A DNA stretch of 19,550 bases from a virus (taxonomy: Duplodnaviria > Heunggongvirae > Uroviricota > Caudoviricetes): the IMG/VR virus record IMGVR_UViG_2529292888_000015. One strand, given 5' to 3'. Below, piece by piece: positions 5,671 through 18,650 of the stretch (position 1 is the first letter of the stretch; every line of letters begins with the position of its first letter). The position numbers and the translations under genes were made by a program. The notes beneath the pieces are model-generated. The model saw only the letters and a list, made by a program, of their open reading frames with translations, ran no database searches and was not told the origin of the DNA.

Positions 5671-5716
5671 ATTCGTAATGCGAAGGTCGTAGGTTCGACT
5701 CCTATTATCGGCACCA
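5671..5716 (+). other. 3' fragment (46 nt) of a tRNA-Thr(CGU) gene; left att site of the P4-like element
   Basis: attcgtaatgcgaaggtcgtaggttcgactcctattatcggcacca matches the anticodon loop to CCA end of enterobacterial tRNA-Thr (thrW-like), recalled from memory; the 5' half is missing. Integrase gene begins 163 bp downstream. Confidence 0.75.
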
Positions 5717-5878
5717 TCTCAACTTCCTCAAACGTCCGTATTAGTCCATAAAATCTCTGATTTATAACATTTTTTATTCTTTTAAGTCCATAGTAGTCCG
5801 TAACCATCCAGTAGAATCCGGTACTGAATGTGTATAGGATTGTGTATATGTTCCTGTTCGGTCTGGATTCCTATACAC

Positions 5879-7060
5879 ATGCCTTTAAACGATATGCAGA
5901 TTCGCCGCGCTAAGCCTGAAGCTAAAGCCTATACATTTGGAGATGGGCTAGGGTTGTCATTACTTATAGAACCTAATGGAAGCAAGAGTTGGCGGTTCCG
6001 CTATCGCTATGCCGGCAAACCCAAAATGATCTCGCTTGGTGTTTACCCAACGATCACCCTTGCCGATGCTCGTTCCCGTCGTGATGAAGCTCGAAAACTT
6101 GTGGCAGAAGGAAAGAACCCTAGTGAGGTTCGAAAAGAGCAAAAGCTAGCTATGCAAACAGAGTCAGAGAACGCCTTCGAAAAGATAGCCAGAGAGTGGC
6201 ATCAACTTAAATCTGCTAAATGGTCGGCGGGATATGCATCAGACATCATGGAAGCGTTTAAGAACGACATTTTTCCTTATGTCGGAACAAGGCCTGTGGG
6301 AGAGATTAAACCGCTAGAGCTGCTGAACGTTCTGCGTAAAATTGAGAAACGTGGTGCGTTGGAGAAAATGCGCAAAGTGCGGCAGCGTTGCTCCGAAGTG
6401 TTTCGCTACGCAATTGCAACGGGTAGGGCGGAGTACAATCCTGCGGCTGATCTCTCCAGCGCTCTCGAAGTACACCAATCCAATCATTTCCCATTCCTAA
6501 AAGCTGATGAGATACCTGATTTTCTACGTGCCTTAGAGGGTTACTCCGGGAGTAAGCTTGTCCAGATAGCCACGAAATTACTGATGATTACGGGTGTGAG
6601 AACCATCGAATTACGCGCGGCATTATGGCAAGAATTTGATCTGGATAACGCTATTTGGGAAATTCCTGCTGAAAGGATGAAAATGCGTAGGCCACATCTT
6701 GTGCCCTTATCATCTCAAGCGGTAGATTTACTCAATGAACTCAAGATCATGACAGGGAACTATCGTTATGTTTTTCCAGGGCGGAACGATCCGAATAGGC
6801 CAATGAGCGAAGCGAGTATAAATCAAGCCATTAAGCGTATTGGGTATGGAGGAAAAGTCACTGGACATGGTTTTCGTCATACCCTTTCTACAATCCTGCA
6901 TGAGCAAGGTTTTGAGAGTGCTTGGATTGAAATCCAGTTGGCTCATGTAGATAAAAATTCTATTAGGGGGACTTATAACCATGCTCAATATTTTAGTGGA
7001 AGGAAGTCTATGATGGACTGGTACAGTAATTTGATATTTGAAAGACTAAAAAGGAGTTAA
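5879..7060 (+). CDS. int: P4-type tyrosine integrase
   Basis: N-terminus MPLNDMQIRRAKPEAKAYTFGDGLGLSLLIEPNGSKSWRFRYRYAGK is the typical P4-integrase arm-binding start; catalytic HGFRHTLST (HxxR) and C-terminal RGTYNHAQY tyrosine. Start set at ATG 5879 rather than the track's 5828. Confidence 0.92.
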   Translation: MPLNDMQIRRAKPEAKAYTFGDGLGLSLLIEPNGSKSWRFRYRYAGKPKMISLGVYPTITLADARSRRDEARKLVAEGKNPSEVRKEQKLAMQTESENAFEKIAREWHQLKSAKWSAGYASDIMEAFKNDIFPYVGTRPVGEIKPLELLNVLRKIEKRGALEKMRKVRQRCSEVFRYAIATGRAEYNPAADLSSALEVHQSNHFPFLKADEIPDFLRALEGYSGSKLVQIATKLLMITGVRTIELRAALWQEFDLDNAIWEIPAERMKMRRPHLVPLSSQAVDLLNELKIMTGNYRYVFPGRNDPNRPMSEASINQAIKRIGYGGKVTGHGFRHTLSTILHEQGFESAWIEIQLAHVDKNSIRGTYNHAQYFSGRKSMMDWYSNLIFERLKRS

Positions 7061-7063
7061 TTT

Positions 7064-7480
7064 GTGTCTCAACCACTTTCGGAAATATTGACATGGGATG
7101 ATGAACAATGGGAGGTATTTGTCCATGATTGGCTTATTGTCTGTAAATCAGATGATTACCCGTGGAGCGAACGTTTGGGAGGAGCTGGAGATAAAGGTAG
7201 AGACGTTGTTGGATATAAATCGGATCCTAACGTAGAAGGTTATTCTTGGGATAATTATCAATGCAAACTGTACAAAAAAAGTTTAGGGTTCTCTGATGTT
7301 GTAGTTGAGTTTGGAAAACTTATCTATTTTACTCTGAATGGTGATTATCCCATCCCTCAGAAGTACTTTTTTGTGGCACCCTATGATTTATCTACTACAT
7401 TTTCTAATTTATTGAAAAATAAAAACGAGCTTAAAAAAGCAGTCCTTGATTCATGGGATTCAGCAATTTCAAAAAAATAA
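7064..7480 (+). CDS. Mrr-like PD-(D/E)xK restriction-endonuclease catalytic domain protein; probable N-terminal part of a frameshifted effector gene (LmuA-like)
   Basis: GTG start with AAAAAGGAG RBS overlapping the int stop. GDKGRDVVGY ... DNYQCKLYKK ... KYFFVAPYDLSTTF aligns with the Mrr_cat motif order (GDGGIDG ... VQAKR ... GVFITTSGFT). ORF ends at a TAA immediately after an A7 run. Confidence 0.6.
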   Translation: MSQPLSEILTWDDEQWEVFVHDWLIVCKSDDYPWSERLGGAGDKGRDVVGYKSDPNVEGYSWDNYQCKLYKKSLGFSDVVVEFGKLIYFTLNGDYPIPQKYFFVAPYDLSTTFSNLLKNKNELKKAVLDSWDSAISKK

Positions 7481-8070
7481 CTAAAAAGATTGATATTCCA
7501 TTAGATGATGAAATAAAAAAATATATTGAGGATTTTGATTTTAGTATTTTTTACTCTCTACCCTTATCATTGATTTTAAATGATATTGCAAATACACACC
7601 TTTATTTTAAGTACTTTAACGAGCTGTATGTCGTGAGAATCCCTCCAAATGAAATTCCAACATACAATTCAAAAAAAGAGTCTGTATATGTTAATGCACT
7701 GCTTCAAGCCTATTCAGAGCATGGAAATAAAACTTATAGTTCTTTCTTAGAGCTTGATGATCCATACAGACGACACTTTAATAATAGTAGAAATGATTTT
7801 TATTTTGCATCTTCGCTTGAGGTTTTTGTCCGCGAAGTATTTAAAGATGATGTATTCAAAGCATTGAAATGTTACATTTCATCTTCAATTGAACCCGTCT
7901 TTTATGAAGACCATAATTATGCATTTATTAGGTGTAATGCAGTCTTGAAGCAGGCTGTTCTGACACCAATTGCACATTCAGTACTATCAAAAATATGTGA
8001 AGCAAATGATAAAAAAGGAATATGCCATCATTTGGTTAATGATGGTGAAGTAATTTGGACGGTGAGATAA
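7453..8070 (+). CDS. Hypothetical protein; probable C-terminal part of the same effector gene, in a different frame
   Basis: Overlaps the previous ORF by 28 nt; one extra A in the 7471..7477 run would fuse the two into a ~335-aa protein. Stop overlaps the next start (TAATG at 8068..8072). Very AT-rich. Confidence 0.55.
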   Translation: MGFSNFKKITKKIDIPLDDEIKKYIEDFDFSIFYSLPLSLILNDIANTHLYFKYFNELYVVRIPPNEIPTYNSKKESVYVNALLQAYSEHGNKTYSSFLELDDPYRRHFNNSRNDFYFASSLEVFVREVFKDDVFKALKCYISSSIEPVFYEDHNYAFIRCNAVLKQAVLTPIAHSVLSKICEANDKKGICHHLVNDGEVIWTVR

Positions 8071-8528
8071 TGGTTAGAATTTATAATTCAAGTTTAGAAG
8101 TGGCATGTCGAATGGCGAAAGTGCTCGTCGCTATTTATCCTTCTTCATTAAGCCTTGAACGGCTTATTTGTTTTGATTTTATTTTAGTAAATCTTAAGGA
8201 TTTTTTACCTGAAGAGATTAGTCTTCATCCTCCAATACCCCGTAGAGATGCTCAGTTAGCCCTAAAACGAGAGATTGTTTTAGAATCATTGGCTTTGTTG
8301 CAAGGCTATGAACTAGCCTCAAAAATTTATACACATCGTGGTTTTGTATATAAAGCTTCTGAAAAAACATATGCATTTACAAATTCTCTACATAATGAAT
8401 ATGTTGCGCAGATGGAGCATAATATAAATTTGGTGGTTAAGTTATATAGTGATATTCCTGATGAGCAGTTGCAATCAATTATAAAAAATAAAATTGGCAA
8501 ATATGATATGGAATTTAATTATGAATGA
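8070..8528 (+). CDS. Small predicted alpha-helical protein (~152 aa), middle gene of the cargo operon (LmuC/DdmB-like position)
   Basis: ATG at 8070 coupled to the upstream stop; stop TGA at 8526..8528 overlaps the downstream ATG at 8521 (ATGAATGA). No recognisable catalytic motif. Confidence 0.6.
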   Translation: MVRIYNSSLEVACRMAKVLVAIYPSSLSLERLICFDFILVNLKDFLPEEISLHPPIPRRDAQLALKREIVLESLALLQGYELASKIYTHRGFVYKASEKTYAFTNSLHNEYVAQMEHNINLVVKLYSDIPDEQLQSIIKNKIGKYDMEFNYE

Positions 8529-9153
8529 CAATTTTTTTACGTTCAGAAAAATAAAGGTAACCGGATTCAATAAATTAGATGCTATAATTGAATTTGGTTC
8601 TAAATTGACTATTTTATATGGTGGTTCTGACTCTGGAAAAACATACATATATTATTTGATTCGATATTTATTAGGGAGTGAAAAACTAAAAAATAAAGAT
8701 ATCGATCATGCTCAAGGTTATGATTTAGCCTATCTGGAATTTAATTTTCAAGGTAGGGTAATGACAATTGAGAGGTCTCTTCAGGATAGCGCCCATTACA
8801 GATTATATGATTCGAGCATTGAAAATGTTAGTGAAGCTAATCTGTTGATGGTTTTTTCCAAAAGTGCTTCGTCTAAAAAGAGTTTTTCATCATACTTTTA
8901 TGGTAGGTTGAATTTCAAAGAGGCTAAAGTAAGAACAAACTTAAGTAATACTCTTCATAAATTTAATCTTAATAATGTTTTTGAATTTTTTTGTATTGAT
9001 GAATTAAGAGTGTTAACTGAGAAGTCGTTAATTCTTTCTGATATTCCTAGCGAGGAGACAAAAAGAAAGTCTGAATTTAAATTCCTTTTAACTCAGAGAG
9101 ATGATACTAACTCCTTAGCAGAAAAACCAAATAAAAAAGCAAGATATTTTTAA
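8521..9153 (+). CDS. SMC/Rad50/RecF-like ABC ATPase, N-terminal head with Walker A; apparently terminated by an in-frame TAA
   Basis: FRKIKVTGFNKLDAIIEFGSKLTILYGGSDSGKTYIYYLIRYLLG is the SMC_N/AAA_23-type N-terminal strand plus Walker A (GGSDSGKT). The next ORF is in the same frame, separated only by TAA 9151..9153. Confidence 0.65.
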   Translation: MNDNFFTFRKIKVTGFNKLDAIIEFGSKLTILYGGSDSGKTYIYYLIRYLLGSEKLKNKDIDHAQGYDLAYLEFNFQGRVMTIERSLQDSAHYRLYDSSIENVSEANLLMVFSKSASSKKSFSSYFYGRLNFKEAKVRTNLSNTLHKFNLNNVFEFFCIDELRVLTEKSLILSDIPSEETKRKSEFKFLLTQRDDTNSLAEKPNKKARYF

Positions 9154-9183
9154 AAAAATCAAATTGCAAATATTTATGAGGAA

Positions 9184-9774
9184 TTGAAAGCGCAATTAAT
9201 TTATCCTGAATATGATCAAGTCATTGTTTCAAGAGAACTTGAGAAAGTAGAGCAAGATATTGAATCATCGAAAGATATATTGAAAGGTATTGTTGATGCA
9301 CTTGATGATAAGAAGCAATTATTAAAAGAGTTAAGTGATGAATTATATTCAATCAGTGACAGGGAAAAATACTTATCATTACTCATTGAAAGATTTAGTC
9401 TTCTTAAAGACCAATACTTTATAGATCTACAAAGAATAGATGTTGTATCACAGGCGAATTTCTATTTAAATAATTTTGCAGATATTTATTGTGAGTTCTG
9501 TAATACACCGCAAAAAAAAGAAAATGAAATATCATATGATGATTGTTTTTTGTCGTGTAATGCAGAAAAATTGAAAATCAAAAGCCAGCTGAAAGGATTA
9601 ATTGAATCAATCGGATCTAATGTTCGCGAACATGAATTAATTATGTTAAGAAAAAATGATGTTAATGAAATTTATCAATCAGAAAAAAGTGATTTTAAGA
9701 CGTTAGAAGATAAAAATATAAAACAATACATTCATCTCTTGAATCACTTTATGAATATAAAGACAATCTTTTAA
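9184..9774 (+). CDS. Coiled-coil segment with a central CxxC (CEFC), probable middle part of the same SMC-like ATPase
   Basis: Charged heptad-like sequence (ELEKVEQDIESSKDILKGIVDALDDKKQLLKELSDEL...); no in-frame ATG start (track uses TTG at 9184); same frame as 8521..9153. Confidence 0.5.
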   Translation: MKAQLIYPEYDQVIVSRELEKVEQDIESSKDILKGIVDALDDKKQLLKELSDELYSISDREKYLSLLIERFSLLKDQYFIDLQRIDVVSQANFYLNNFADIYCEFCNTPQKKENEISYDDCFLSCNAEKLKIKSQLKGLIESIGSNVREHELIMLRKNDVNEIYQSEKSDFKTLEDKNIKQYIHLLNHFMNIKTIF

Positions 9775-10340
9775 TGGATCACACAAAACATAGCATTCTA
9801 TCTTCATTACAAGATAAAGAAGATGATGTTGACGAACTTAAATACTCCGCCGAGGACTTTGACTCCTTAACAGTAGCTGATTTGTATGATATAGAAATAG
9901 CGATGCAAGACTTTTTGAATGATATAAATTTTGAAAATTCTAAAGATAACAAAGTGCGATTTGACGAAGATACATATGACTTTAATATCAATGGGAAACG
10001 CCGAGGAATGTTTGGTAAAGGTACCCGTGCAGTAATGCATGCTATATTTACCATTTGCTTTGCGGAATTTTTATCAAGAAAAGGGAATCCATTCATTGGA
10101 TTTGTTGTGCTTGATAGTCCATTAGTGACGCACTTTGATAAAGATAGAGGGGGTTCTCTATCGGATGTTAATAGCGTCAGTCTCAGTGATTCATTTTATC
10201 ACGCATTAATCAAAAGGGACTATAATTTCCAGATTGTAATTCTTGAGAATAAAGGTCCGACGTTCCAAATAAAAATTAATGATGCAAATAAAATCCATAA
10301 CTTAAATAAGAATGGAAGCTCTGGTTTTTATCCTGTTTAA
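9774..10340 (+). CDS. C-terminal head of an SMC-like ABC ATPase (signature-like and Walker B-like motifs, both non-canonical)
   Basis: GMFGKGTRAVMHAIFTICFAEFL ... FIGFVVLDSPL ... FQIVILEN occupy the positions of the signature, Walker B and H-loop of SMC-type heads but are degenerate (DS instead of DE). Start overlaps the upstream stop (TAATG); one extra A in the runs at 9712..9723 would fuse it to the preceding ORF. Confidence 0.55.
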   Translation: MDHTKHSILSSLQDKEDDVDELKYSAEDFDSLTVADLYDIEIAMQDFLNDINFENSKDNKVRFDEDTYDFNINGKRRGMFGKGTRAVMHAIFTICFAEFLSRKGNPFIGFVVLDSPLVTHFDKDRGGSLSDVNSVSLSDSFYHALIKRDYNFQIVILENKGPTFQIKINDANKIHNLNKNGSSGFYPV

Positions 10341-10370
10341 TACATTAAAAATATAACTGCTAATTGGGGT

Positions 10371-10396
10371 GCTCGAAATTATATTTCGTTTCGAGC
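10371..10396 (+). terminator. Hairpin downstream of the cargo operon (possible terminator, no clear U-tract)
   Basis: gctcgaaa (10371..10378) pairs with tttcgagc (10389..10396), beginning 31 bp after the stop at 10340. Confidence 0.3.
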
Positions 10397-10749
10397 GCTC
10401 AGTTCATTTCTAAATAATTTGCAAAATTATTTTGGGTACTTTCGCCTCTACACTTCCTTCGGGTGGTTCCACAATAATGGATCTCACCGGCGTTTGATAT
10501 TTTATAATCTAACCCCTTAGCGCGCGCAGCCCCCCACGCCTGCTCGCTTCGCTTAACAGACTGGTTTTCATGCATTCCGCAAATCGTCTCAGAAGCCACC
10601 ACACAAGGGCTTTCGCGTCAAAAATGGTGCATGAGAATCATGCGTTTTCATGCGCTATAGACATGCACTCATGCGCTCTCAGGCCAGCCAGGGAAAAGGC
10701 GTAAAAAATCCCAGTACTGGACCGGGATTACGTGGGCTTTTTTTGCTAA

Positions 10750-11022
10750 TCAGACAGGAATTTGCTGACGGCTTGACAGCTTTGACGCGGAGCCATAGCG
10801 ATTGAGAGTTTGCTGTTGTTTTTCCGGCATTTGTGCTTTCTCTGATTCCTGTTCATTGCGCCGGGGCTTCATGATTATCGTATCCACACTTTCCAGTGCG
10901 GTAAATGTGTAGGAACATTCAAGATTCTGGCACTGATACCATGAGCGTTTAACCGATGGTGCTTCATAGGCGGAGGTTCTGGCGTGTGCCGTCGTACCGC
11001 ATTCGGGACATTTAAGTGCCAT
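10750..11022 (-). CDS. Ogr/Delta-family zinc-finger late-gene transcriptional activator
   Basis: MALKCPECGTTAHARTSAYEAPSVKRSWYQCQNLECSYTFTALESV follows the Ogr pattern C..C..AHARTS...QC.N..CS.TF..ESV; GGAG RBS inside the end of the upstream gene. Confidence 0.85.
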   Translation of the reverse strand: MALKCPECGTTAHARTSAYEAPSVKRSWYQCQNLECSYTFTALESVDTIIMKPRRNEQESEKAQMPEKQQQTLNRYGSASKLSSRQQIPV

Positions 11023-11027
11023 TAATA

Positions 11028-11579
11028 TTACTCCTGCATGCCGTTAATGTAATCCAGACGTTGCTGAAAGCGCAGTTGTTGTGCAGGGGTGTAAGAGCTC
11101 TGGCAATCACGAACCATCATGGGGTCAGGCATCACACCGGATTCATCCAGAATCATACGATAATCCCCGGCAATTTCAGGCGGTGTTATTGCCAGCTGGC
11201 GAACCAGAGCATTGCGTAATATACGGGACGCAACGTCAACCCCTCCGCGCCCCTTCAGGAACGGAGCCAGTGCAGATGTCAGGGCTGCTCCATTCGCCTG
11301 CATAAAATTGCTGAGAGCGTCTTCTGTGCAGGCCTCCATCAGTTGATGCTGCGAGTAAATGCATTCGCGCGCAGCACAGTTAATTTGCCATTTCAGCACA
11401 TCCAGATGTTCCCGCTGTAATTCGAGCTGTCGAGCATAATCTGCTGGTTTTTCCATGGCAGTGAGGAGTGATTCTATCTGTTGTTCAACGGCTTTTCGGC
11501 TCTCACTATGTCCAGCCCACAGAATACGGGCATTTCTAAAACTGATAAGCGCTTGGTCTGGAGTGACTCGGGCCATCAT
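11028..11579 (-). CDS. psu: P4 Psu-like protein (polarity suppression / capsid decoration), assignment tentative
   Basis: 183 aa, close to P4 Psu size; sits in the late operon directly upstream of the Ogr/Delta gene and is coupled to the preceding gene (ATGA overlap at 11576..11579). Similarity to Psu is from imperfect memory. Confidence 0.5.
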   Translation of the reverse strand: MMARVTPDQALISFRNARILWAGHSESRKAVEQQIESLLTAMEKPADYARQLELQREHLDVLKWQINCAARECIYSQHQLMEACTEDALSNFMQANGAALTSALAPFLKGRGGVDVASRILRNALVRQLAITPPEIAGDYRMILDESGVMPDPMMVRDCQSSYTPAQQLRFQQRLDYINGMQE

Positions 11580-12328
11580 ACTGCTTTCTCCTTCTCAGCA
11601 CGTTCCTGACGAACCTTCATTTTATGCATAGCTGCTGGAGAGAGTTTATTACTGAAATCCAGACGGGCCGCATAATCCGGGGCAACTCCCGCCAGTTTAA
11701 ACACGGGGTCCTGTTCGGGCATCGCATCGTTAGTCAGAGCCGGTCTGGTGATATGTTTATGAATAAAATCTTTCAGCAGTGTGTCCGGGTCATTAACTGA
11801 ATGCACCACACCGACAACTGCGCTGGCTTCCCTGCCCATTGTTGATTTGAGCAGGCTTAGTGTCTGGATTAGTGCTTTTCCATGCGACTGCATAAAATCT
11901 TCCCAGATTTGTTTTGCGCGAATACCCACAAGGGTGTCGTGCGCGTGGATATACTTTCCGGCTAATTCCGCAGCCTCCTGCGGCAAAAGTGCATTTTCGC
12001 TTTCCTGAGCCGCCAGCAGCTCATCAAAATCCTCAAGCGTTTCTCGTCCCAGCGCAATTTCCGTGCGCAGTTTTTTCATTTCCTTTGAGACTACGCCCTG
12101 ACTTTCACGAAATAGCGTGCGCCACTCCTCATTCAGGGCGTTCGTCGTGGCTTCCATTTCAGCGCGGCGCTGGCGGATTGTCGCAATATTATCCGCTGCC
12201 GCTTTTTGCTGACGACGTGCTTCAAGCCATGCAGATTTGGTGGCATTCACTTTCTCAAGCGCCTGTTGCGTCGAAACAGGGATAGAAATTTCAACGATCG
12301 GGTTATTGTTCTGTTCTGGGATTGTCAT
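11576..12328 (-). CDS. First gene of the P4-like late operon; Sid-like (capsid size determination) by size and position
   Basis: 250-aa predicted helical protein, first gene of the leftward operon, divergent from the alpA/primase operon. No motif-level confirmation. Confidence 0.4.
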   Translation of the reverse strand: MTIPEQNNNPIVEISIPVSTQQALEKVNATKSAWLEARRQQKAAADNIATIRQRRAEMEATTNALNEEWRTLFRESQGVVSKEMKKLRTEIALGRETLEDFDELLAAQESENALLPQEAAELAGKYIHAHDTLVGIRAKQIWEDFMQSHGKALIQTLSLLKSTMGREASAVVGVVHSVNDPDTLLKDFIHKHITRPALTNDAMPEQDPVFKLAGVAPDYAARLDFSNKLSPAAMHKMKVRQERAEKEKAV

Positions 12329-12398
12329 GTCAGCACCTAGTGGTTTGTCGTGGTGTCAATTGTGCTGTGATGCATACAAAGCTGCCATTGAACGCCAT

Positions 12399-12416
12399 TG
12401 TGCGAGCGACAAGACA
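12399..12416 (-). promoter_or_regulatory. Candidate Ogr/Delta-responsive late-promoter element (TGT-N12-ACA) upstream of the late operon
   Basis: tgt gcgagcgacaag aca; centre lies ~80 bp upstream of the 12328 start codon, compatible with a -55 activator site and a ~25-nt leader. Confidence 0.3.
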
Positions 12417-12495
12417 AAGACTGAACCGCCCCGGACCTCTTTTGGCTAGCCAGAAAAGGCCTCGTTTAACTAAGGCTGTTTCAGACTTACCTTAA

Positions 12496-12710
12496 CTATT
12501 CACTACTATTCACTTAGGTAAAAAAAATAGGTAATACAGAAGGTTATAAGGTGAAGGGTTGGCATGGCAGTATTCATCGACTGTTCATAACTGTTCACAT
12601 GGGAATAAAATTATTTATGGTATTTTTTCATAATGGGTGGTTTTTTTATTCCTCGTAGCTATTTGTTTTTTGCTCCTCACCACTATTCACCCTTATTCAG
12701 GAGTATTCAA
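12496..12710. repeat. Iteron-like array: eight YTRTTCAY octamers in three 10-bp-phased clusters with AT-rich spacers (candidate ori/crr-type alpha-binding region)
   Basis: ctattcac at 12496 and 12506; gtattcat 12570, ctgttcat 12581, ctgttcac 12591; ctattcac 12683, ttattcag 12693, gtattcaa 12703. P4 ori and crr are known to carry TGTTCACC repeats bound by alpha. Confidence 0.45.
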
Positions 12711-13261
12711 CAGGCACATAAATAGACTGCATGTTTTTGCCGGGGAATAACATTTTCGCCTCTGGCCATGGTGTTGCATTTCATACTGATTTTTATAAAA
12801 CTAGATCTGTCCGGTTCTTTATGGATTCATTCGGATATATTTTACGATTTAAGGTGATGTTATTTAATATCAAGGTTTTTATGCAGGCCCAATGTTTATA
12901 AGTTGGATGCGATTCAAAAATATGCCCGGAAATTGGGGCCTGCAATGCAAGGCCTCGTGTAGAAGTTGTACTGCCTTGCTGTATTGGCGGTGGGGTTAGC
13001 ACTATCAGGTGCAATGACCCATAGGATAGTAAACCCTGGGTGAATGGTAGTTCCTATTAATGCTCCTGTATTTATAGTCCGCAGGCATGGTATTTATTAT
13101 GTCATTTTATATGGTTTAATCGGGCTTTAAATTCCATAAAATCAATATGTGACGCTAAATAAAAAATGCGTGCGCAGGTGGTTTATATACACATAATAAG
13201 GAACTACCTGAACCCGGATAAATTCATCCGGACTGTTGTGGAAATTAAAGAGGGTAGATAA

Positions 13262-13522
13262 ATGCGTAATATTTCTGTGTCTGCGCCAGCTCCTGCTGCG
13301 CCATTATTTCCTGTATCGAACCATCATGAGCGATTTTTACGCCTGCCTGAGGTGATGCACTTATGCGGGTTGTCCCGTTCGACCGTTTACGACCTGATCA
13401 GCCGCGATGCGTTTCCGAAGCAGATCCCGCTTGGCGGTAAAAATGTCGCCTGGGCACAGTCTGAGGTCAGCGCATGGATGGCGGACCGCATCAGCGCCCG
13501 TGGGCGGGGATGTGATGCATGA
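13262..13522 (+). CDS. alpA: AlpA / Vis-family phage transcriptional regulator (MerR-like HTH, excisionase-like)
   Basis: [50 protein letters not shown] is the AlpA signature; the true start may be downstream of the annotated ATG. Confidence 0.8.
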
Positions 13523-13881
13523 TGATACCTGCATACATTAAATACCTTTATTCTGGCTTGCTTACTGTCGTCATTTCCAGGTATAGTTTTTCCGCTGTCG
13601 CAAAATCGGCAGCCGGAATTGGCGTTCCGTATAACTTATTGGCGACAATTGACGCCCCTTGCGTCTTTTTTTACGTCGTAGCTCAGGCACAACCATTTTC
13701 AGGGCTGTGGTGTTTATGCTTACACCATGGTTCTATCGAGATAATGGTAGTCCGGGCGGGGCAGCCTTCGGGCTGGCCGGTTTCCAATAAGGCCGGTTAC
13801 GCCAACCCCGTTCGGGCTGCCACCAGTGAAATTGGCGTTTCCGGTGGTAGCAATAACCGCTACTTATTGGAGGCTGCCATC

Positions 13882-14076
13882 ATGGCTACAATCCTCACCC
13901 CGTCACACCCGCAATATGTCTTTGTGTTTGCCGCAATCCGCCGTGCTGACACTCACCCCCGCATCTGTATGCTTCGCACTGTCTCCTGCGATGAGCATTC
14001 CGCGCGCCGTTTGCTAGTCCGAGATTATGTACTCTCCCTTTCTGCACGGCTGCCTGCCGGGGAGGTGACGCTATGA
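13882..14076 (+). CDS. Small hypothetical protein (64 aa), first of three translationally coupled small ORFs upstream of the primase
   Basis: ATG at 13882 with GGAGG 8 nt upstream; stop overlaps the next ATG (ATGA at 14073..14076). The track's longer 13519 start gives an implausible N-terminal extension. Confidence 0.4.
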
Positions 14077-14294
14077 ACCAGTTTGAGATTTCCTACGACG
14101 ATGTTGTAAGGCTGAAACATTTACGCAATGTGGGTGAGTATGTAACTGGCATGGCAGCCCTGCAGGACTGTTATGAAAAGCCAGCAGGTGCCCAATGCGA
14201 ACAACTGGTTTCCCTCATTTATCTGATGACAGAGCAACTGGATGGAGTGGTGCAACGCTGCCATGACGACCTGATGAATGCGGAGGTGGCCTGA
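14073..14294 (+). CDS. Small hypothetical protein (73 aa), P4-like early operon
   Basis: Coupled at both ends by overlapping stop/start codons (ATGA at 14073, TGATG at 14292..14296); GGAGG RBS for the next gene lies within its end. Confidence 0.55.
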
Positions 14295-14539
14295 TGATAT
14301 GCTGTGAATCTCTTCTGGCACTTCGTGCCGCTCTGTATCGCCGTGCCATAGCCCGCGAGCTGGAAGGGTTCTATCTGCGCCAGCATGGGCAGCAAAGAGG
14401 GCTGGAAATTGCCTGCGCGTTGCTTTCGGATCTGATGGAGTCGGGGCCGCTTAAAGCCTGTCCGGTTCTCTCACTGCTCGGAATGACGGTCATGGATGAA
14501 CTTTGTTCCCGTCACCTCAACAAACCAGCGCTGCACTAA
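14294..14539 (+). CDS. Small hypothetical protein (81 aa), P4-like early operon
   Basis: ATG 14294 preceded by GGAGGTGG; stop at 14537..14539 lies within the primase RBS region. Confidence 0.55.
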
Positions 14540-14552
14540 GGAGGGCCGCACA

Positions 14553-16886
14553 ATGTCAGGAATGAAAGTTAGCCAGGCTGAGAAAGCAGCTCGGGGTCAC
14601 TGGTCAAGAATTTTACCTGCGCTGGGCGTAAATGTACTGAAAAATCGGCACCAGCCCTGCCCGGTCTGTGCCGGGAAAGACCGCTTTCGATTTGATGACC
14701 AGGAAGGGCGGGGAACGTGGTTCTGTAACCAGTGCGGGGCAGGTGATGGCCTGGCGCTTGTAAGTAAAGTACTGGATGTAGGCATTAGTGAAGCGGCAGA
14801 CAGAATAAACGGCATTATCGGAAACCTGCTGCCAGTATCTCAGGGAATGCTTGAATCTGGTTCTCCTGAAAAAGAGGACGGGAGAAAAGCTGCAGCAGTG
14901 CTGGCTGCCCGTTTGTTTGATAAGTCCCGCCAGACCACTGGCAATGCCTATCTGACGAGTAAAGGGTTTCCTGCACTGCCTTGCCGGGAATTAACCGCTA
15001 TGCATAAAGTCGGTGGTGTGGCATTTCGCGCGGGAGATCTTGTCGTTCCATTGTATGCAGATGGAGAGCTGGTAAATCTGCAGTTAATCAACGCTAATGG
15101 GGGCAAATGCTTCCTTAAAGGCGGTCAGGTTAAGAATGCCTTTTACCTGGTTGAAGGTACTGCCAAAGCAGCCAAACGGCTCTGGATAGCGGAAGGATAT
15201 GCCACCGCACTTACTATCAACTATCTGACTGGCGATGCTGTCATGGTGGCCTTTTCGTCCGTCAATTTCCTTTCCCTGGCGAGCATTGCCTGCAGTGAGT
15301 ACCCAACGCACCAGATAATTATTGCTGCTGACCGCGATCTCAACGGTGCGGGGCAAACAAGGGGCGCAGCTGTTACCGGGGCCTGCAATTGCACAATGGC
15401 GCTCCCGCCTGTGTTTGGTGACTGGAACGATGCATTCACGCAAAACGGCGAAGAAGCCACCCGGCATGCAATTCATGAAGTAATAAAACCAGCTGTTGCC
15501 AGCCCCTTCGACACAATGAGCGAAGCTGAATTTACCGCGCTGAGCGTCAGCGAAAAAGCGCAGAGGGTAGTGGATCACTATAAAAATTCACTGGCAGTAG
15601 ACCCGAACGGGCAGCTCCTTTCACGCTATGAGGCGGGGGCCTGGAAAGTTATCTATTACGCCGATTTTGCCCGTGATGTCGCTGCGCTGTTTCAGCGCCT
15701 CGACGCACCTTTTTCATCCGCGAAAATTGCGTCTCTCGTGGAAACCCTCAAACTGATCGTTCCGCAACAGCAGAATCCGGCGCGGCAACTTATCGGATTT
15801 CGCAACGGTGTGCTCGATACCCGGACAGGATTGTTCAGCCCGCACGATAAGAAGCACTGGTTACGTACGCTGTGCGAGGTGGATTACACGCAGCCCGTTG
15901 ACGGTGAGTCACTGGAAACCCATGCCCCGGCATTCTGGCGCTGGCTGGATCGTGCCGCAGGTTTTAATCCTGAAAAACGGGACATTATTCTGGCTGCATT
16001 GTTTATGGTGCTGGCTAACCGTTATGACTGGCAGCTGTTTCTGGAGGTCACTGGCCCTGGCGGAAGTGGAAAGAGTATTCTTGCTGAAATAGCAACCATG
16101 CTGGCGGGTGAAGATAACGCGACCTCGGCAACCATTGAAATGCTTGAGTCGCCAAGAGAACGAGCTGCGTTAATAGGTTTTTCACTGATTCGACTTCCCG
16201 ACCAGGAAAAGTGGAGCGGTGACGGGGCCGGACTAAAAGCCATCACTGGCGGCGATGCGGTATCCGTTGATCCCAAATATCAGAACGCCTATTCAACCCA
16301 CATCCCGGCGGTCATCCTGGCTGTGAACAATAATCCGATGCGCTTCACTGATCGTAGTGGTGGAGTTTCACGCCGAAGGGTGATCCTGCATTTCCCCGAC
16401 CAGATAGCCCCGGAGGAACGCGATACCCAGCTCAAAGAGAAAATTGCCAGTGAGCTAGCGGTGATTGTTCGCCAGCTTATGCAGCGTTTCAGCGACCCAA
16501 TGAGTGCCAGGACATTGCTTCAGTCACAGCAGAACTCCGATGAAGCGCTCACCATCAAACGTGATGCTGATTCAGCTTTTGATTTTTGCGGCTACCTTGA
16601 GGTCCTACCTGACACCACGGGCATGTTTATGGGGAACGCTAATATTGTTCCACGTCAGCCTCGAACTTACCTCTACCATGCCTATCTGGTCTACATGGAG
16701 GCTAACGGCTATAAAAATACGCTCAGTCTGACCATGTTTGGCAAGGGGCTACCGTTAATGCTCAAGGAATATGGGCTGCAGTATGAGAAACGACGGACCA
16801 ATCAAGGAATGCAGACTAATCTGGCCCTAAGAGAGGAAAGCAATGCTGACTGGTTGCCAAAATGCGATGAGTTTGCAGCGAAATAA
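14553..16886 (+). CDS. P4 alpha-type bifunctional DNA primase/helicase (zinc-binding primase, TOPRIM, D5-like P-loop NTPase)
   Basis: AAGGAGGG RBS at 14538..14545; zinc motif CPVCAGKDRFRF...CNQCGAGDG; TOPRIM acidic motifs (IAEGYATA, IIIAADRDLNG); Walker A GPGGSGKS and Walker B-like region. Start at 14553 rather than the track's 14496. Confidence 0.9.
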   Translation: MSGMKVSQAEKAARGHWSRILPALGVNVLKNRHQPCPVCAGKDRFRFDDQEGRGTWFCNQCGAGDGLALVSKVLDVGISEAADRINGIIGNLLPVSQGMLESGSPEKEDGRKAAAVLAARLFDKSRQTTGNAYLTSKGFPALPCRELTAMHKVGGVAFRAGDLVVPLYADGELVNLQLINANGGKCFLKGGQVKNAFYLVEGTAKAAKRLWIAEGYATALTINYLTGDAVMVAFSSVNFLSLASIACSEYPTHQIIIAADRDLNGAGQTRGAAVTGACNCTMALPPVFGDWNDAFTQNGEEATRHAIHEVIKPAVASPFDTMSEAEFTALSVSEKAQRVVDHYKNSLAVDPNGQLLSRYEAGAWKVIYYADFARDVAALFQRLDAPFSSAKIASLVETLKLIVPQQQNPARQLIGFRNGVLDTRTGLFSPHDKKHWLRTLCEVDYTQPVDGESLETHAPAFWRWLDRAAGFNPEKRDIILAALFMVLANRYDWQLFLEVTGPGGSGKSILAEIATMLAGEDNATSATIEMLESPRERAALIGFSLIRLPDQEKWSGDGAGLKAITGGDAVSVDPKYQNAYSTHIPAVILAVNNNPMRFTDRSGGVSRRRVILHFPDQIAPEERDTQLKEKIASELAVIVRQLMQRFSDPMSARTLLQSQQNSDEALTIKRDADSAFDFCGYLEVLPDTTGMFMGNANIVPRQPRTYLYHAYLVYMEANGYKNTLSLTMFGKGLPLMLKEYGLQYEKRRTNQGMQTNLALREESNADWLPKCDEFAAK

Positions 16887-16892
16887 CTGACC

Positions 16893-16915
16893 TAAGACCG
16901 GCTGTGCCGGTCTTA
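16893..16915 (+). terminator. Strong GC-rich hairpin directly after the primase stop (probable terminator, no U-tract)
   Basis: taagaccggc tgt gccggtctta: perfect 10-bp stem with 3-nt loop beginning 7 nt after the TAA at 16884..16886. Confidence 0.45.
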
Positions 16916-17018
16916 AATCCGCTACAGGAAATTATCTCAAAATATATATCGATAAAATTTAAAAGTTATATGCTAAGGCGTCAGCGGAAAATGCATCTAA
17001 TTCATTGTTAGATGATGT

Positions 17019-17975
17019 TTATTTTTGAATTGATTTAAACATCCCATCGAGTTGTAATTTATTTATGTCGGTTTTCTTTATGGCTTTAATTAAGTTTTCA
17101 ATAACTTCCAAAGAAAAAATTACATCTTTCTTTTCAATTCTAACCCCCCCGTGGTGGCTGCAAGCATTAAGGATGTCCTTTGTAATTTCAACATCATTTT
17201 TCATTAATGGTTCATAGTCCAGAGCCTCAATAACAGAAACTAAACTACCTAGCATTTGCTCTTGGTATTGAACGTTGTTTAAATGCATTATACGAATATT
17301 AACAAGCATGAGAATATATTCTAAATATCTCCTGGCAGTATTTCCTTTCTCTTGTAAAGAATCACGATCATATTCCTCAATACTCATGACTTCATTATGT
17401 AAAGAGGCTATTTTGTGCTCTGCTAATGAAATATTTATCGCATCCATGAGGTTTCGTGAGAAGCCTGTAGATGTAACATGACCATTTGCGGGCCTTGTTA
17501 AAATACATGTAGTATAGCAATTTATATTTGGGGTCTGGATTGTCTCATTTACTCTTTTAACCGTTCTATAAACGTCTACCATATAAGAACCTGAGTTTTC
17601 AAATGAACATGAAGAGCATTTTGTATTATATATTCTATTTAGAGATAACTGATTGTGATAGTATCCCTTTAAGAAAGCATATATAGTGTCATTAAACTCG
17701 ACAAACACAACGGACTCAATATATATATGGAATTTATCATTGGGGTGCCACTCTAATTCAAGTCTTCTTGTAGAGTCATCAAAGGAAAAGTTTGAAATAA
17801 AATCCCAGTTACCTAAATCTATAAAATCAACGATATTTCTACCTGCACCATGGATATTTTTATTTATTAAAGTTGTGATTGAGTTTTTTATAATGTCCCA
17901 ATCATGAATTTCATGATCGAATTTATTATTGATGGTTTCTTTTATTTGATTGGAAAAGTTTGAATAACTAGTCAC
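17019..17975 (-). CDS. Hypothetical protein (318 aa), AT-rich cargo gene between primase and attR; function unknown
   Basis: Long uninterrupted ORF in a very AT-rich block flanked by AT-rich non-coding DNA (16920..17018 and 17976..18505); no motif recognisable by eye. Confidence 0.6.
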   Translation of the reverse strand: MTSYSNFSNQIKETINNKFDHEIHDWDIIKNSITTLINKNIHGAGRNIVDFIDLGNWDFISNFSFDDSTRRLELEWHPNDKFHIYIESVVFVEFNDTIYAFLKGYYHNQLSLNRIYNTKCSSCSFENSGSYMVDVYRTVKRVNETIQTPNINCYTTCILTRPANGHVTSTGFSRNLMDAINISLAEHKIASLHNEVMSIEEYDRDSLQEKGNTARRYLEYILMLVNIRIMHLNNVQYQEQMLGSLVSVIEALDYEPLMKNDVEITKDILNACSHHGGVRIEKKDVIFSLEVIENLIKAIKKTDINKLQLDGMFKSIQK

Positions 17976-18505
17976 TTGTTAGCCTCAAAATTAATAATGA
18001 GTATTAAAATTTAATTGATATTGTCTATAAAATGTAGCGATGCAATTTTATTGCAACGAAATGATTTTTACAACATACCATTATCGCTAAACAAAATCGC
18101 ACCCATCAAATCAACTTACGTTACAATCACTACAAAGCGATTGCATTTAAATTCAAAACAGTTTTCTGTTGGGCGCATTTTTTGTTGTACTGGACTAAAG
18201 AGAAAAAATGGGGTAAGGAACAAATACCTTCCGTGCTCAAAAATTAGGTTTTTATGCACTTATTAATCAGTCAAGGTGAACAGTAAAGTGTTCACTTCTT
18301 ATCAATCGTTAATTTCATATCTTTTTGAATATTAATGAAAAAAAACACAATGAGTAGTATGAACAGTTTTCCCCCAAAAAAAGTTTTTTCTGCCTTGAGA
18401 ATGCGCGGAAAGCGAACGCCTTCACCAATGTGTATAGGGGTGTGTGTAGTTTAAATCTTCTATTTTAATTTATGTATTAAAATCATTGTGTTGGTGGCGA
18501 TTATT

Positions 18506-18524
18506 GGTTCCTATTATCGCACCA
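18506..18524 (+). repeat. Degenerate direct repeat of the tRNA-Thr 3' end; candidate attR of the P4-like element
   Basis: ggttcctattatcgcacca versus ggttcgactcctattatcggcacca at 5692..5716: shared ggttc, cctattatcg and cacca in order, with two small gaps. Confidence 0.45.
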
Positions 18525-18650
18525 TTTAAATCAAGTAGTTACCCCATATTTAAATACACCACGTTTCCTCCTGTGCCGCATTTGTGCCATTGTAACCCTG
18601 GCAATTAATCAAAATACTGTTCTGACATCAGGCAATGCAGGTGCAGACAT

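What the first reader, a model, noticed from the sequence alone, without database searches (positions are those of the whole stretch)
12496..12710. Phased octamer iterons with AT-rich spacers between the divergent late and early operons
Eight copies of CTATTCAC/CTGTTCAC-like octamers occur in three clusters with exact 10-bp phasing, separated by A/T tracts (for example taaaaaaaatag at 12519..12530 and the T-rich stretch at 12610..12660). P4 alpha protein is known to bind TGTTCACC iterons in ori and crr, so this is most likely the satellite's replication origin or cis replication region, and possibly also where helper and satellite regulation intersect.
Basis: partly seen in the sequence, partly recalled or inferred. 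Interest (0 to 1): 0.4.

Follow-up and report, generated by a model that had tools for sequence, protein, structure and literature searches.

The report
P4-type replication origin of prophage Sp2

Summary
The window is E. coli O157:H7 DNA carrying the P4-like prophage Sp2. The eight same-strand TRTTCA repeats at 12496-12710 are real and far denser than chance. They lie between sid and the vis-like gene, where the phage P4 record annotates its replication origin.

Clusters 1 and 2 align with the P4 type 1 repeats (the TGTTCACC alpha-binding iterons): 73% identity over 109 nt, same 2 + 1 inverted + 3 layout, same A-rich spacer. Forty other P4-like elements share this block, with the iteron cores best conserved. 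Sp2 encodes an intact alpha primase-helicase (73% identical to P4 alpha, origin-binding domain present). One crr-like unit lies at 18263-18392. So this is ori, not crr.

Cluster 3 is a separate module. It sits where P4 has three 'type 2' decamers, which I show are P2 Cox boxes. Many other satellites carry phage 186 Apl-type operators at that site. Cluster 3 could be extra alpha sites or operators for an unidentified helper excisionase; I found no matching helper.

Verdict: an unannotated new member of a known kind. Binding and replication are untested.

The parts
12496..12513 (+). Cluster 1: two direct type-1-like iterons (CTATTCAC x2, 10-bp spacing).
   Evidence: Aligns column for column with P4 type 1 repeats 9396-9413. 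Conserved in 42 aligned P4-like origins.
12514..12549 (.). Conserved A-rich spacer (TTAGGTAAAAAAAATAGGTAATACAG...). Family consensus AAAAAGATAAGTAATACAGTAAGTTAAAG.
   Evidence: mean information content 1.43 bits, with AAAAA and GTAATACAG nearly invariant. This is more than a passive spacer. Its role (unwinding or a host-factor site) is inferred.
12550..12557 (-). Inverted, degenerate iteron (GGTGAAGG; reverse complement CCTTCACC).
   Evidence: Aligns with P4's inverted type 1 repeat GGTGAACA at 9353-9360. GGTGAA is nearly invariant across the family.
12570..12598 (+). Cluster 2: three direct iterons (GTATTCAT, CTGTTCAT, CTGTTCAC; spacing 11 and 10).
   Evidence: Aligns with P4 type 1 repeats 9310-9338. 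The two TTCAT variants recur in every member of the Sp2 lineage examined, at 82-94% alpha identity.
12599..12682 (.). T-rich, poorly conserved spacer (70% A+T).
   Evidence: for composition. Conservation drops to about zero immediately after the last iteron. It may be a DNA-unwinding region; that is inference only.
12683..12710 (+). Cluster 3: three tandem decamers (ACTATTCACC, CTTATTCAGG, AGTATTCAAC) with core YATTCR, at the position of P4's 'ori type 2 repeats'.
   Evidence: The core is conserved and the 4-nt linkers vary among Sp2-lineage elements. The corresponding P4 decamers are P2 Cox boxes. At least 10 of 42 other loci have 186 Apl-type boxes there.
12361..12416 (-). Psid region with two TGT-N12-ACA sites (12361-12378 and 12399-12416), typical of Delta/Ogr-activated late promoters, upstream of sid.
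   Evidence: P4 has the equivalent pair upstream of sid (read). Conserved in L065 and L052.
11576..12328 (-). sid (capsid size determination), first gene of the leftward late operon that bounds the origin region.
13185..13257 (+). Counterpart of the P4 PLL -10/start region, leader hairpin and vis ribosome-binding site.
   Evidence: Best local alignment to P4. It places PLL next to vis and shows about 400 bp of extra non-coding DNA between cluster 3 and PLL.
13262..13522 (+). vis-like gene (AlpA family), first gene of the rightward operon that bounds the origin region.
14294..14539 (+). cnr-like gene (DUF5375, homologue of P4 ORF106). In this window it lacks 26 codons.
14553..16886 (+). alpha primase-helicase with a C-terminal winged-helix origin-binding domain: the presumed iteron-binding initiator.
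   Evidence: 73% identical to P4 alpha over 771 aa. The C-terminal domain matches PDB 1KA8 at E = 2.7e-47.
18263..18392 (+). Single crr-like unit holding GGTGAACA, TGTTCACT, TTGAATA, ATGAACA and an A7/T6 tract. Presumed second cis site of the bipartite origin.
   Evidence: Local alignment to both P4 crr 120-bp repeats. Homologous units in many P4-like loci. Sequence.

Best explanation
Window 12496-12598 is the ori1 of the P4-like satellite prophage Sp2: six type 1 iterons (2 direct, 1 inverted, 3 direct) around a conserved A-rich spacer.

By homology with P4, the C-terminal winged-helix domain of the element's own alpha protein (14553-16886) would bind these iterons. It would also bind those of the crr-like unit at 18263-18392. 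The hexameric SF3 helicase and DnaG-type primase parts of the same protein would then open the neighbouring A+T-rich DNA and prime bidirectional theta replication. A cnr-like product would limit copy number.

Cluster 3 (12683-12710) belongs to the same origin/control region but is a separate module. Its first decamer is a canonical family iteron (CTATTCACC); the next two are not.

Shown here: the repeats, their clustering, homology and synteny with the P4 origin, family-wide conservation, an intact alpha with the binding domain, and a crr-like unit. Inferred: alpha binding, where the DNA opens, and whether this prophage copy still fires.
For: Identity of the element: the window is 100% identical to E. 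coli O157:H7 Sakai, where this stretch is annotated 'prophage Sp2, P4-like phage'.

Position: the P4 record places rep_origin 9086-9809 and its six type 1 repeats between vis and sid. The Sp2 repeats lie in the same interval at a similar distance from sid.

Alignment: 80 of 109 positions (73%) match P4 across the iterons and spacer, with the same order and orientation of sites.

Conservation: 40 P4-like loci from other Enterobacterales carry the block 1.6-2.7 kb upstream of alpha. Mean information content is 1.80 bits in the iteron cores, against 1.15 outside them, and about 0 after the last iteron.

Initiator: alpha is intact, 73% identical to P4 alpha. Its C-terminus matches the solved P4 origin-binding domain 1KA8. 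PMC4889955 states that origin binding in P4 alpha goes through this domain.

Second site: a crr-like unit lies downstream of alpha.

Exclusions: no DnaA box anywhere in the region, no Rfam RNA, and no annotated gene under it in 367 genomes.
Against: No binding or replication data exist for Sp2.

The iterons depart from the P4 octamer TGTTCACC. None of the nine matches it exactly, two of the three in cluster 2 read TTCAT, and the inverted copy is degenerate.

Only one crr unit is present, against two in P4, and it lies 1.4 kb from alpha behind a cargo gene.

The cnr-like gene in this window lacks 26 codons.

The region is 100% identical in about 307 O157 genomes. That is clonal inheritance and says nothing about selection on activity.

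My statements that alpha binds type 1 iterons in both ori and crr, and that P4 replication does not need DnaA, rest on my memory of Ziegelin et al. 1993 and related papers, which the paper tool does not hold.
Confidence: 0.85

Rival explanations
1. This concerns cluster 3 only (12683-12710). It is not an alpha site but an array of operators for an excisionase-type regulator (a recombination directionality factor such as Cox or Apl) of a helper phage. It would be the Sp2-lineage equivalent of the P2 Cox boxes through which P2 switches on P4.
For: P4's three 'ori type 2' decamers at the homologous position contain exact cox-boxes (TTAAAGTCA at 9180-9188, TTAAAGCCA at 9190-9198). The published consensus is TTAAA(G/C)NC(A/C) at 10-11 bp spacing, bound upstream of PLL (PMC3936717).

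Nearly every P4-like locus has 3-5 tandem decamers there, but their sequence differs between lineages. At least 10 of 42 loci carry WTTVCC boxes (shuffle expectation about 0). These match the annotated Apl sites of phage 186. The same GTTTGCC arrays occur in 186-like phages, at attP in three of them (L093, L106, L109) and also between apl and cI in L093.

Cox specificity differs between helpers, and Wphi Cox does not activate P4 (PMC5009727).

In cluster 3 the core YATTCR is conserved while the linkers vary. Boxes 2 and 3 lack the C of the TTCAC core that type 1 iterons keep. Three adjacent operators are the minimum for efficient Apl binding (PMC7498355).
Against: No helper phage with YATTCR arrays was found. 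I checked P2, 186, Wphi, Midge, 500465-1, part of P88, PSP3, Klebsiella phage ST147-VIM1phi7.1 and Sakai's own P2-like Sp13.

Cluster 3 matches neither the Cox nor the Apl consensus.

The true PLL counterpart lies at about 13185-13200. Cluster 3 is therefore about 480 bp upstream of it, against 90-122 bp in P4.

The first decamer is a perfect family-type iteron.
Confidence: 0.3
2. The homology is real, but the origin is a decayed relic. Sp2 is a fixed, cryptic prophage whose iterons have drifted, so the repeats no longer support replication.
For: None of the iterons matches TGTTCACC exactly. There are two TTCAT variants and a degenerate inverted copy. There is a single crr unit and a 78-bp deletion in the cnr-like gene of this window. 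An AAA-ATPase pseudogene sits in the element. The only P2-like prophage of Sakai (Sp13) is interrupted by IS elements. The region is invariant across about 307 clonal O157 genomes.
Against: The same 'deviant' iterons, including both TTCAT copies, are kept in Sp2-lineage elements from other hosts whose alpha is only 82-94% identical, while flanking bases change. That pattern fits constraint rather than drift. TATTCAC is the majority form of the first iteron across the whole family. The alpha reading frame is intact. Single, distal crr units are common among P4-like elements.
Confidence: 0.12
3. The repeats are transcription-factor operators (Vis or Delta) that control the divergent promoters Psid and PLL, and not an origin.
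For: They lie between two regulated promoters. RDF-type proteins such as Vis bind direct repeats about one helical turn apart (PMC7498355).
Against: The TGT-N12-ACA sites typical of Delta/Ogr-activated promoters are elsewhere, at 12361-12416. The one match inside the repeats (12582-12599) is just two adjacent iterons. Vis is almost invariant among loci whose decamer arrays differ completely. The 2+1+3 block is the one annotated as ori type 1 repeats in the P4 record.
Confidence: 0.03

Closest known systems
Phage P4 ori1 (NC_001609 rep_origin 9086-9809, type 1 repeats TGTTCACC)
   Same: Same position between sid and vis. Same 2 direct + 1 inverted + 3 direct iteron layout. Same A-rich spacer with GTAATACAG. 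73% identity over 109 nt. A homologous alpha initiator, and three tandem decamers further on.
   Different: The iterons read CTATTCAC, TGTTCAT or TATTCAT instead of TGTTCACC. The inverted copy is degenerate. The three decamers have a different sequence (YATTCR against the P2 cox-box). About 400 bp of extra non-coding DNA separates them from PLL.
Phage P4 crr (cis replication region, two 120-bp repeats downstream of alpha)
   Same: It uses the same iteron family. Sp2 has a homologous unit at 18263-18392.
   Different: The finding itself is not crr: it lies upstream of alpha, between the operons. The Sp2 crr is a single unit, 1.4 kb from alpha behind a cargo gene.
P2 Cox boxes upstream of P4 PLL, and phage 186 Apl operators
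   Same: Cluster 3 shares the architecture: three or more direct repeats at 10-bp spacing, a roughly 6-bp conserved core with variable linkers, and the same slot after the type 1 iterons.
   Different: Its sequence matches neither TTAAA(G/C)NC(A/C) nor the WTTVCC form of the 186 Apl sites. No cognate protein was identified. It is far from the PLL counterpart.
Iteron-type plasmid origins such as pSC101, R6K and RK2 (comparison from my own knowledge)
   Same: Helically phased direct repeats for the element's own initiator, next to A+T-rich DNA.
   Different: The initiator is a primase-helicase fusion, not a Rep protein that recruits DnaB. There are no DnaA boxes. The origin is bipartite, with a distant second site (crr).

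Membership tests
P4-type ori1 (alpha-dependent bipartite origin) | Located between the late operon (sid) and the vis / left operon | tested here: met
   sid starts at 12328 (-) and vis at 13262 (+). The repeats lie 168-382 bp upstream of the sid start, like P4's type 1 repeats (about 170-273 bp).
P4-type ori1 (alpha-dependent bipartite origin) | Six type 1 iterons arranged 2 direct + 1 inverted + 3 direct | tested here: met
   Sites at 12496, 12506, 12550 (inverted), 12570, 12581 and 12591. The layout is the same in P4 and in 40 other loci.
P4-type ori1 (alpha-dependent bipartite origin) | Iteron sequence TGTTCACC (family form T[GAC]TTCAC[CT]) | tested here: inconclusive
   No exact TGTTCACC in the origin. 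Four of six sites keep TTCAC and two read TTCAT. The variants are stable within the Sp2 lineage.
P4-type ori1 (alpha-dependent bipartite origin) | Sequence homology to the P4 origin, including the spacer | tested here: met
   80 of 109 positions identical. A plain blastn search of the phage collection missed it because no 11-mer word is shared.
P4-type ori1 (alpha-dependent bipartite origin) | Cognate alpha primase-helicase with a winged-helix origin-binding domain | tested here: met
   777 aa, 73% identical to P4 alpha. Matches 1KA8 at E = 2.7e-47.
P4-type ori1 (alpha-dependent bipartite origin) | Second cis site (crr) with iterons downstream of alpha | tested here: met
   One unit at 18263-18392 aligns with both P4 crr repeats. 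P4 has two units.
P4-type ori1 (alpha-dependent bipartite origin) | cnr copy-number regulator upstream of alpha | tested here: inconclusive
   A DUF5375 homologue is present at 14294-14539, but it lacks 26 codons relative to all 317 E. coli genomes that carry the locus.
P4-type ori1 (alpha-dependent bipartite origin) | Alpha binds the iterons and the region supports alpha-dependent replication | not testable with these tools
   Needs EMSA or footprinting and a replication assay.
Helper RDF operator array (Cox/Apl boxes), for cluster 3 only | At least three direct repeats at 10-11 bp spacing, with a conserved core and variable linkers | tested here: met
   Three YATTCR cores at 10-bp spacing. 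The linkers vary among Sp2, L290, L065, L052 and L266.
Helper RDF operator array (Cox/Apl boxes), for cluster 3 only | Match to a known RDF consensus, or to arrays in a helper phage | tested here: not met
   Matches neither the cox-box nor WTTVCC. No YATTCR arrays in nine P2-like phages or prophages. The IMG/VR scans were truncated.
Helper RDF operator array (Cox/Apl boxes), for cluster 3 only | Lies just upstream of PLL (P4: about -90 to -122) | tested here: not met
   The PLL counterpart is at about 13185-13200, so cluster 3 is about 480 bp upstream.
DnaA-dependent iteron origin (plasmid type) | DnaA boxes next to the iterons | tested here: not met
   TTWTNCACA has a single match in the window, at 8327, and none near the repeats.

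The most novel reading that the evidence does not exclude
The slot just after the alpha iterons in P4-like origins may be an exchangeable 'helper-sensing' cassette. It would hold three to five decamers that copy the operator sequence of the excisionase/regulator of whichever P2-like helper the satellite exploits. P4 carries P2 Cox boxes there, and many enterobacterial satellites carry 186 Apl-type boxes. On this reading, cluster 3 of Sp2 (YATTCR x3) is the operator set for a helper regulator not yet identified. Decamer class would then predict satellite-helper pairing.
Probability: 0.3. Interest if true: 0.55.

Novelty: new member of a known kind. Interest (0 to 1): 0.3.

Why it matters
For Sp2 itself this supplies a missing annotation. 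RefSeq lists no feature under these repeats. The origin, the crr-like unit and the Psid/PLL sites can now be placed, which helps anyone who tests whether this O157 satellite can still be mobilised or who builds P4-type vectors for O157.

The wider point comes from the comparison. The alpha-binding block is conserved across P4-like satellites of many genera. The adjacent decamer array changes by lineage and, in two cases, matches known helper regulators: P2 Cox in P4, and 186 Apl-type operators in many others. If that holds generally, it gives a sequence-level handle on which helper a satellite listens to. That question is open for the thousands of P4-like elements now catalogued.

Tried and rejected
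1. A blastn search ('distant' mode) of 12300-13300 against the phage collection found nothing. This was a sensitivity limit, not absence: P4 is in the collection and aligns once fetched.

2. Vis as the binder of the lineage-specific decamers is rejected. Vis proteins that differ by one residue sit next to unrelated decamers (L006 against L051; L037 and L038 are likewise near-identical).

3. Co-variation between the alpha winged-helix sequence and the TTCAT iteron variants: none seen. Near-identical domains go with canonical TTCAC iterons in other lineages.

4. The search for a helper phage with YATTCR arrays failed. Nine P2-like phages and prophages, including Sakai Sp13, had none.

5. The MAFFT placement of P4's PLL opposite Sp2 12720-12850 was overturned by a local alignment that puts it at 13185-13257.

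6. Small ORFs in 12730-13261 are rejected as genes, because they carry stops or frameshifts in relatives. No Rfam RNA lies in the intergenic region.

7. The promoter-like hits inside the iterons are no more frequent than in shuffles and were not used.

8. The classic P4 replication papers could not be read, so statements drawn from them are marked as my own knowledge.

Full report
WHAT THE WINDOW IS

The right half of the window is 100% identical to E. coli O157:H7 genomes. In strain Sakai this stretch is annotated 'prophage Sp2, P4-like phage', equivalent to window positions about 5700-18586.

Gene order is P4-like. An integrase gene (5879-7060) is followed by cargo genes. Delta (10750-11022), psu (11028-11579) and sid (11576-12328) are on the minus strand. 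After a 933-bp gap come, on the plus strand, a vis/AlpA-like gene (13262-13522), the isrK and C4/CI RNAs (13594-13671 and 13740-13827), a cnr-like DUF5375 gene, and the alpha primase-helicase (14553-16886). The finding lies in the sid-vis gap.

THE OBSERVATION

Spacing is 10; then 11 and 10; then 10 and 10.

The bare hexamer is not clearly enriched across the window. The octamer CTRTTCAC is enriched: 5 against 0.9 expected, reached by 0 of 200 shuffles. Eight same-strand copies in 215 bp exceed every one of 1000 window shuffles (maximum 5) and 2000 local shuffles (maximum 4).

A ninth copy, inverted and degenerate, lies at 12550-12557 (GGTGAAGG).

WHAT IT IS

The P4 record (NC_001609) places rep_origin 9086-9809 between orf88/vis and sid. 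It annotates six 'ori type 1 repeats' (9310-9413; five on one strand and one inverted) and three 'ori type 2 repeats' (9176-9205). crr lies downstream of alpha.

Read in the orientation of the window, P4 has ACTGTTCACCTCTGTTCACC-TTAATAAAAAAGATAAGTAATACAG...GGTGAACA...ACTGTTCACCGTCTGTTCACCACTGTTCACC. Sp2 has ACTATTCACTACTATTCAC-TTAGGTAAAAAAAATAGGTAATACAG...GGTGAAGG...GTATTCATCGACTGTTCATAACTGTTCAC. Eighty of 109 aligned positions are identical, and every site is in the same order and orientation.

A scan of one genome per species with the alpha protein returned 80 loci. Forty of them carry the same block 1.6-2.7 kb upstream of alpha. In the 42-sequence alignment the iteron cores are the best conserved columns (1.80 bits against 1.15 outside them). 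The spacer motifs AAAAA and GTAATACAG are nearly invariant. Conservation collapses right after the last iteron.

The family form of the iteron is T[GAC]TTCAC[CT], and TATTCAC is the majority form at the first site. The Sp2 'CTATTCAC' copies are therefore normal family iterons. The two TTCAT copies are peculiar to the Sp2 lineage, but they are kept in all its members (alpha 82-94% identical) while neighbouring bases change.

THE PARTNERS

Sp2 alpha is full length and 73% identical to P4 alpha. Its C-terminal residues match the solved P4 origin-binding winged-helix domain (1KA8, E = 2.7e-47). PMC4889955 states that origin binding by P4 alpha goes through this domain. That the sites bound are the type 1 iterons of both ori and crr is my recollection of Ziegelin et al. 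1993; I could not read that paper.

A single crr-like unit lies at 18263-18392. It contains GGTGAACA, TGTTCACT, two further degenerate copies and the A/T tract, and it aligns with both 120-bp repeats of P4 crr. Homologous units, single or double, proximal or behind cargo, occur in most P4-like loci.

There is no DnaA box near the repeats.

The two TGT-N12-ACA sites at 12361-12378 and 12399-12416 match the pair upstream of P4 sid. They place Psid immediately left of the iterons.

CLUSTER 3 IS A SEPARATE MODULE

Cluster 3 aligns with the position of P4's type 2 decamers, not with any type 1 site.

Those P4 decamers contain exact matches to the P2 cox-box. The consensus is TTAAA(G/C)NC(A/C), repeated every 10-11 bp, and P2 Cox binds upstream of P4 PLL to derepress the satellite (PMC3936717).

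Across the 42 loci almost all have three to five tandem decamers in this slot, but the sequence differs by lineage. Vis does not co-vary with them.

The commonest class, GTTTGCCANN, also occurs in IMG/VR. About half of 60 hits there are P4-like satellites, with the array about 175-200 bp upstream of vis. Three hits (L093, L106, L109) are 186-like phages with the array just past the 3' end of int. One of them (L093) also carries the boxes between an Apl homologue (89% identical to 186 Apl) and cI. The annotated Apl sites of phage 186 read ATTGCC, TTTGCC and ATTACC.

At least 10 of the 42 satellites carry three or more such boxes, against about zero in shuffles. The loci are related, so this is not a probability.

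The slot therefore looks like a set of operators borrowed from the helper's excisionase/regulator. Helpers are known to differ in this specificity (PMC5009727).

Sp2, L065, L290, L052, L266 and relatives carry YATTCR x3 instead, with variable linkers. I could not find a helper with such arrays.

A local alignment puts the true PLL counterpart at 13185-13257, next to vis. Cluster 3 is therefore about 480 bp from it, behind about 400 bp of non-coding DNA peculiar to this lineage. The first decamer, ACTATTCACC, is also a perfect family iteron.

I therefore leave cluster 3 open: about 45% extra alpha sites, about 30% helper-regulator operators, and the rest other or none.

MECHANISM AND RIVALS

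The most likely reading (0.85) is that the region is the Sp2 ori1. Alpha would bind the iterons here and at crr, open adjacent A+T-rich DNA and prime replication, as in P4.

The homology is shown. Binding, the unwinding site and present-day activity are inferred.

A decayed relic is possible (0.12) but is weakened by the lineage-wide retention of the variant iterons. Operators for Vis or Delta are unlikely (0.03).

NOVELTY

The kind is well known and the prophage is already labelled P4-like. What is new is only the placement of ori and crr in Sp2, where RefSeq has no feature, and the family-level view of the decamer slot. Interest is 0.3.

Noticed in passing
window 14343-14348 (inside ORF 14294-14539): The window lacks 78 bp (26 codons, in frame, flanked by a short TGCC repeat) of the cnr-like DUF5375 gene, the homologue of P4 ORF106 just upstream of alpha. 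The 78 bp are present in Sakai. Every listed top match among the 317 complete E. coli genomes with the locus spans 189 bp in two pieces rather than 111 bp, so none shows the deletion. From memory, cnr limits P4 copy number by acting on alpha, so this could affect use of the origin.
   Followed up: partly
window 18263-18392 and 17019-17975: There is a single crr-like unit 1.4 kb downstream of alpha, with a 318-aa cargo ORF of unknown function inserted between them. In L005, L028 and L054 two crr units flank about 1.8 kb of DNA, which suggests the crr repeats bracket a cargo hotspot.
   Followed up: partly
42 aligned P4-like loci, 80-110 bp after the last type 1 iteron (P4 L002 9176-9205; examples L007, L016, L024, L056): The slot holds lineage-specific tandem decamers. 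P4 has P2 cox-boxes there. At least 10 of 42 loci have WTTVCC boxes matching the annotated phage 186 Apl sites. Other classes include ATGGCCAAT, GAGGATGTGC, ACCCTTAYT and AAACCTCAGG.
   Followed up: partly
window 12715-13140: About 400 bp of non-coding DNA between cluster 3 and the PLL counterpart is present in the Sp2 lineage (and a comparable extra length in L030) but absent from P4 and most relatives. ORFs in it are broken in relatives, and there is no Rfam match. Its function is unknown.
   Followed up: partly
window 13594-13671 and 13740-13827: isrK and the C4/CI antisense RNA (Rfam scores 71.9 and 84 bits) lie inside the ORF annotated as 'phage repressor protein' or Icd-like (13519-14076). 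The immunity factor here is probably the RNA, as in P4.
   Followed up: no
window 12444-12454: A palindrome-like TGGCTAGCCAG followed by AAAAGG is conserved in Sp2, L065 and L052. P4 has the similar GGCAAGCCAGGAAAAGG. It lies between the Psid activator sites and the iterons. Its function is unknown.
   Followed up: no
L261 about 11650-11890; also L168, L169, L220 (IMG/VR): Distant alpha-encoding elements (alpha 32-51% identical) carry 4-10 tandem copies of CATTCAACAG, immediately followed by 3-4 copies of GACACGTAAT. Copy number varies between contigs. These may be their origin or control arrays.
   Followed up: no
window 13118-13126 (minus strand): One exact P2 cox-box match (TTAAAGCCC) lies about 75 bp upstream of the PLL counterpart. 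It is not conserved in L065 or L052, so it is probably chance.
   Followed up: partly
L340 3040-24159 (Sakai Sp13): The only P2-like prophage of Sakai is interrupted by IS629/IS1203 and IS30 copies and carries plasmid-type partition genes. It has no YATTCR arrays, so O157 Sakai seems to lack an obvious resident helper for Sp2.
   Followed up: partly
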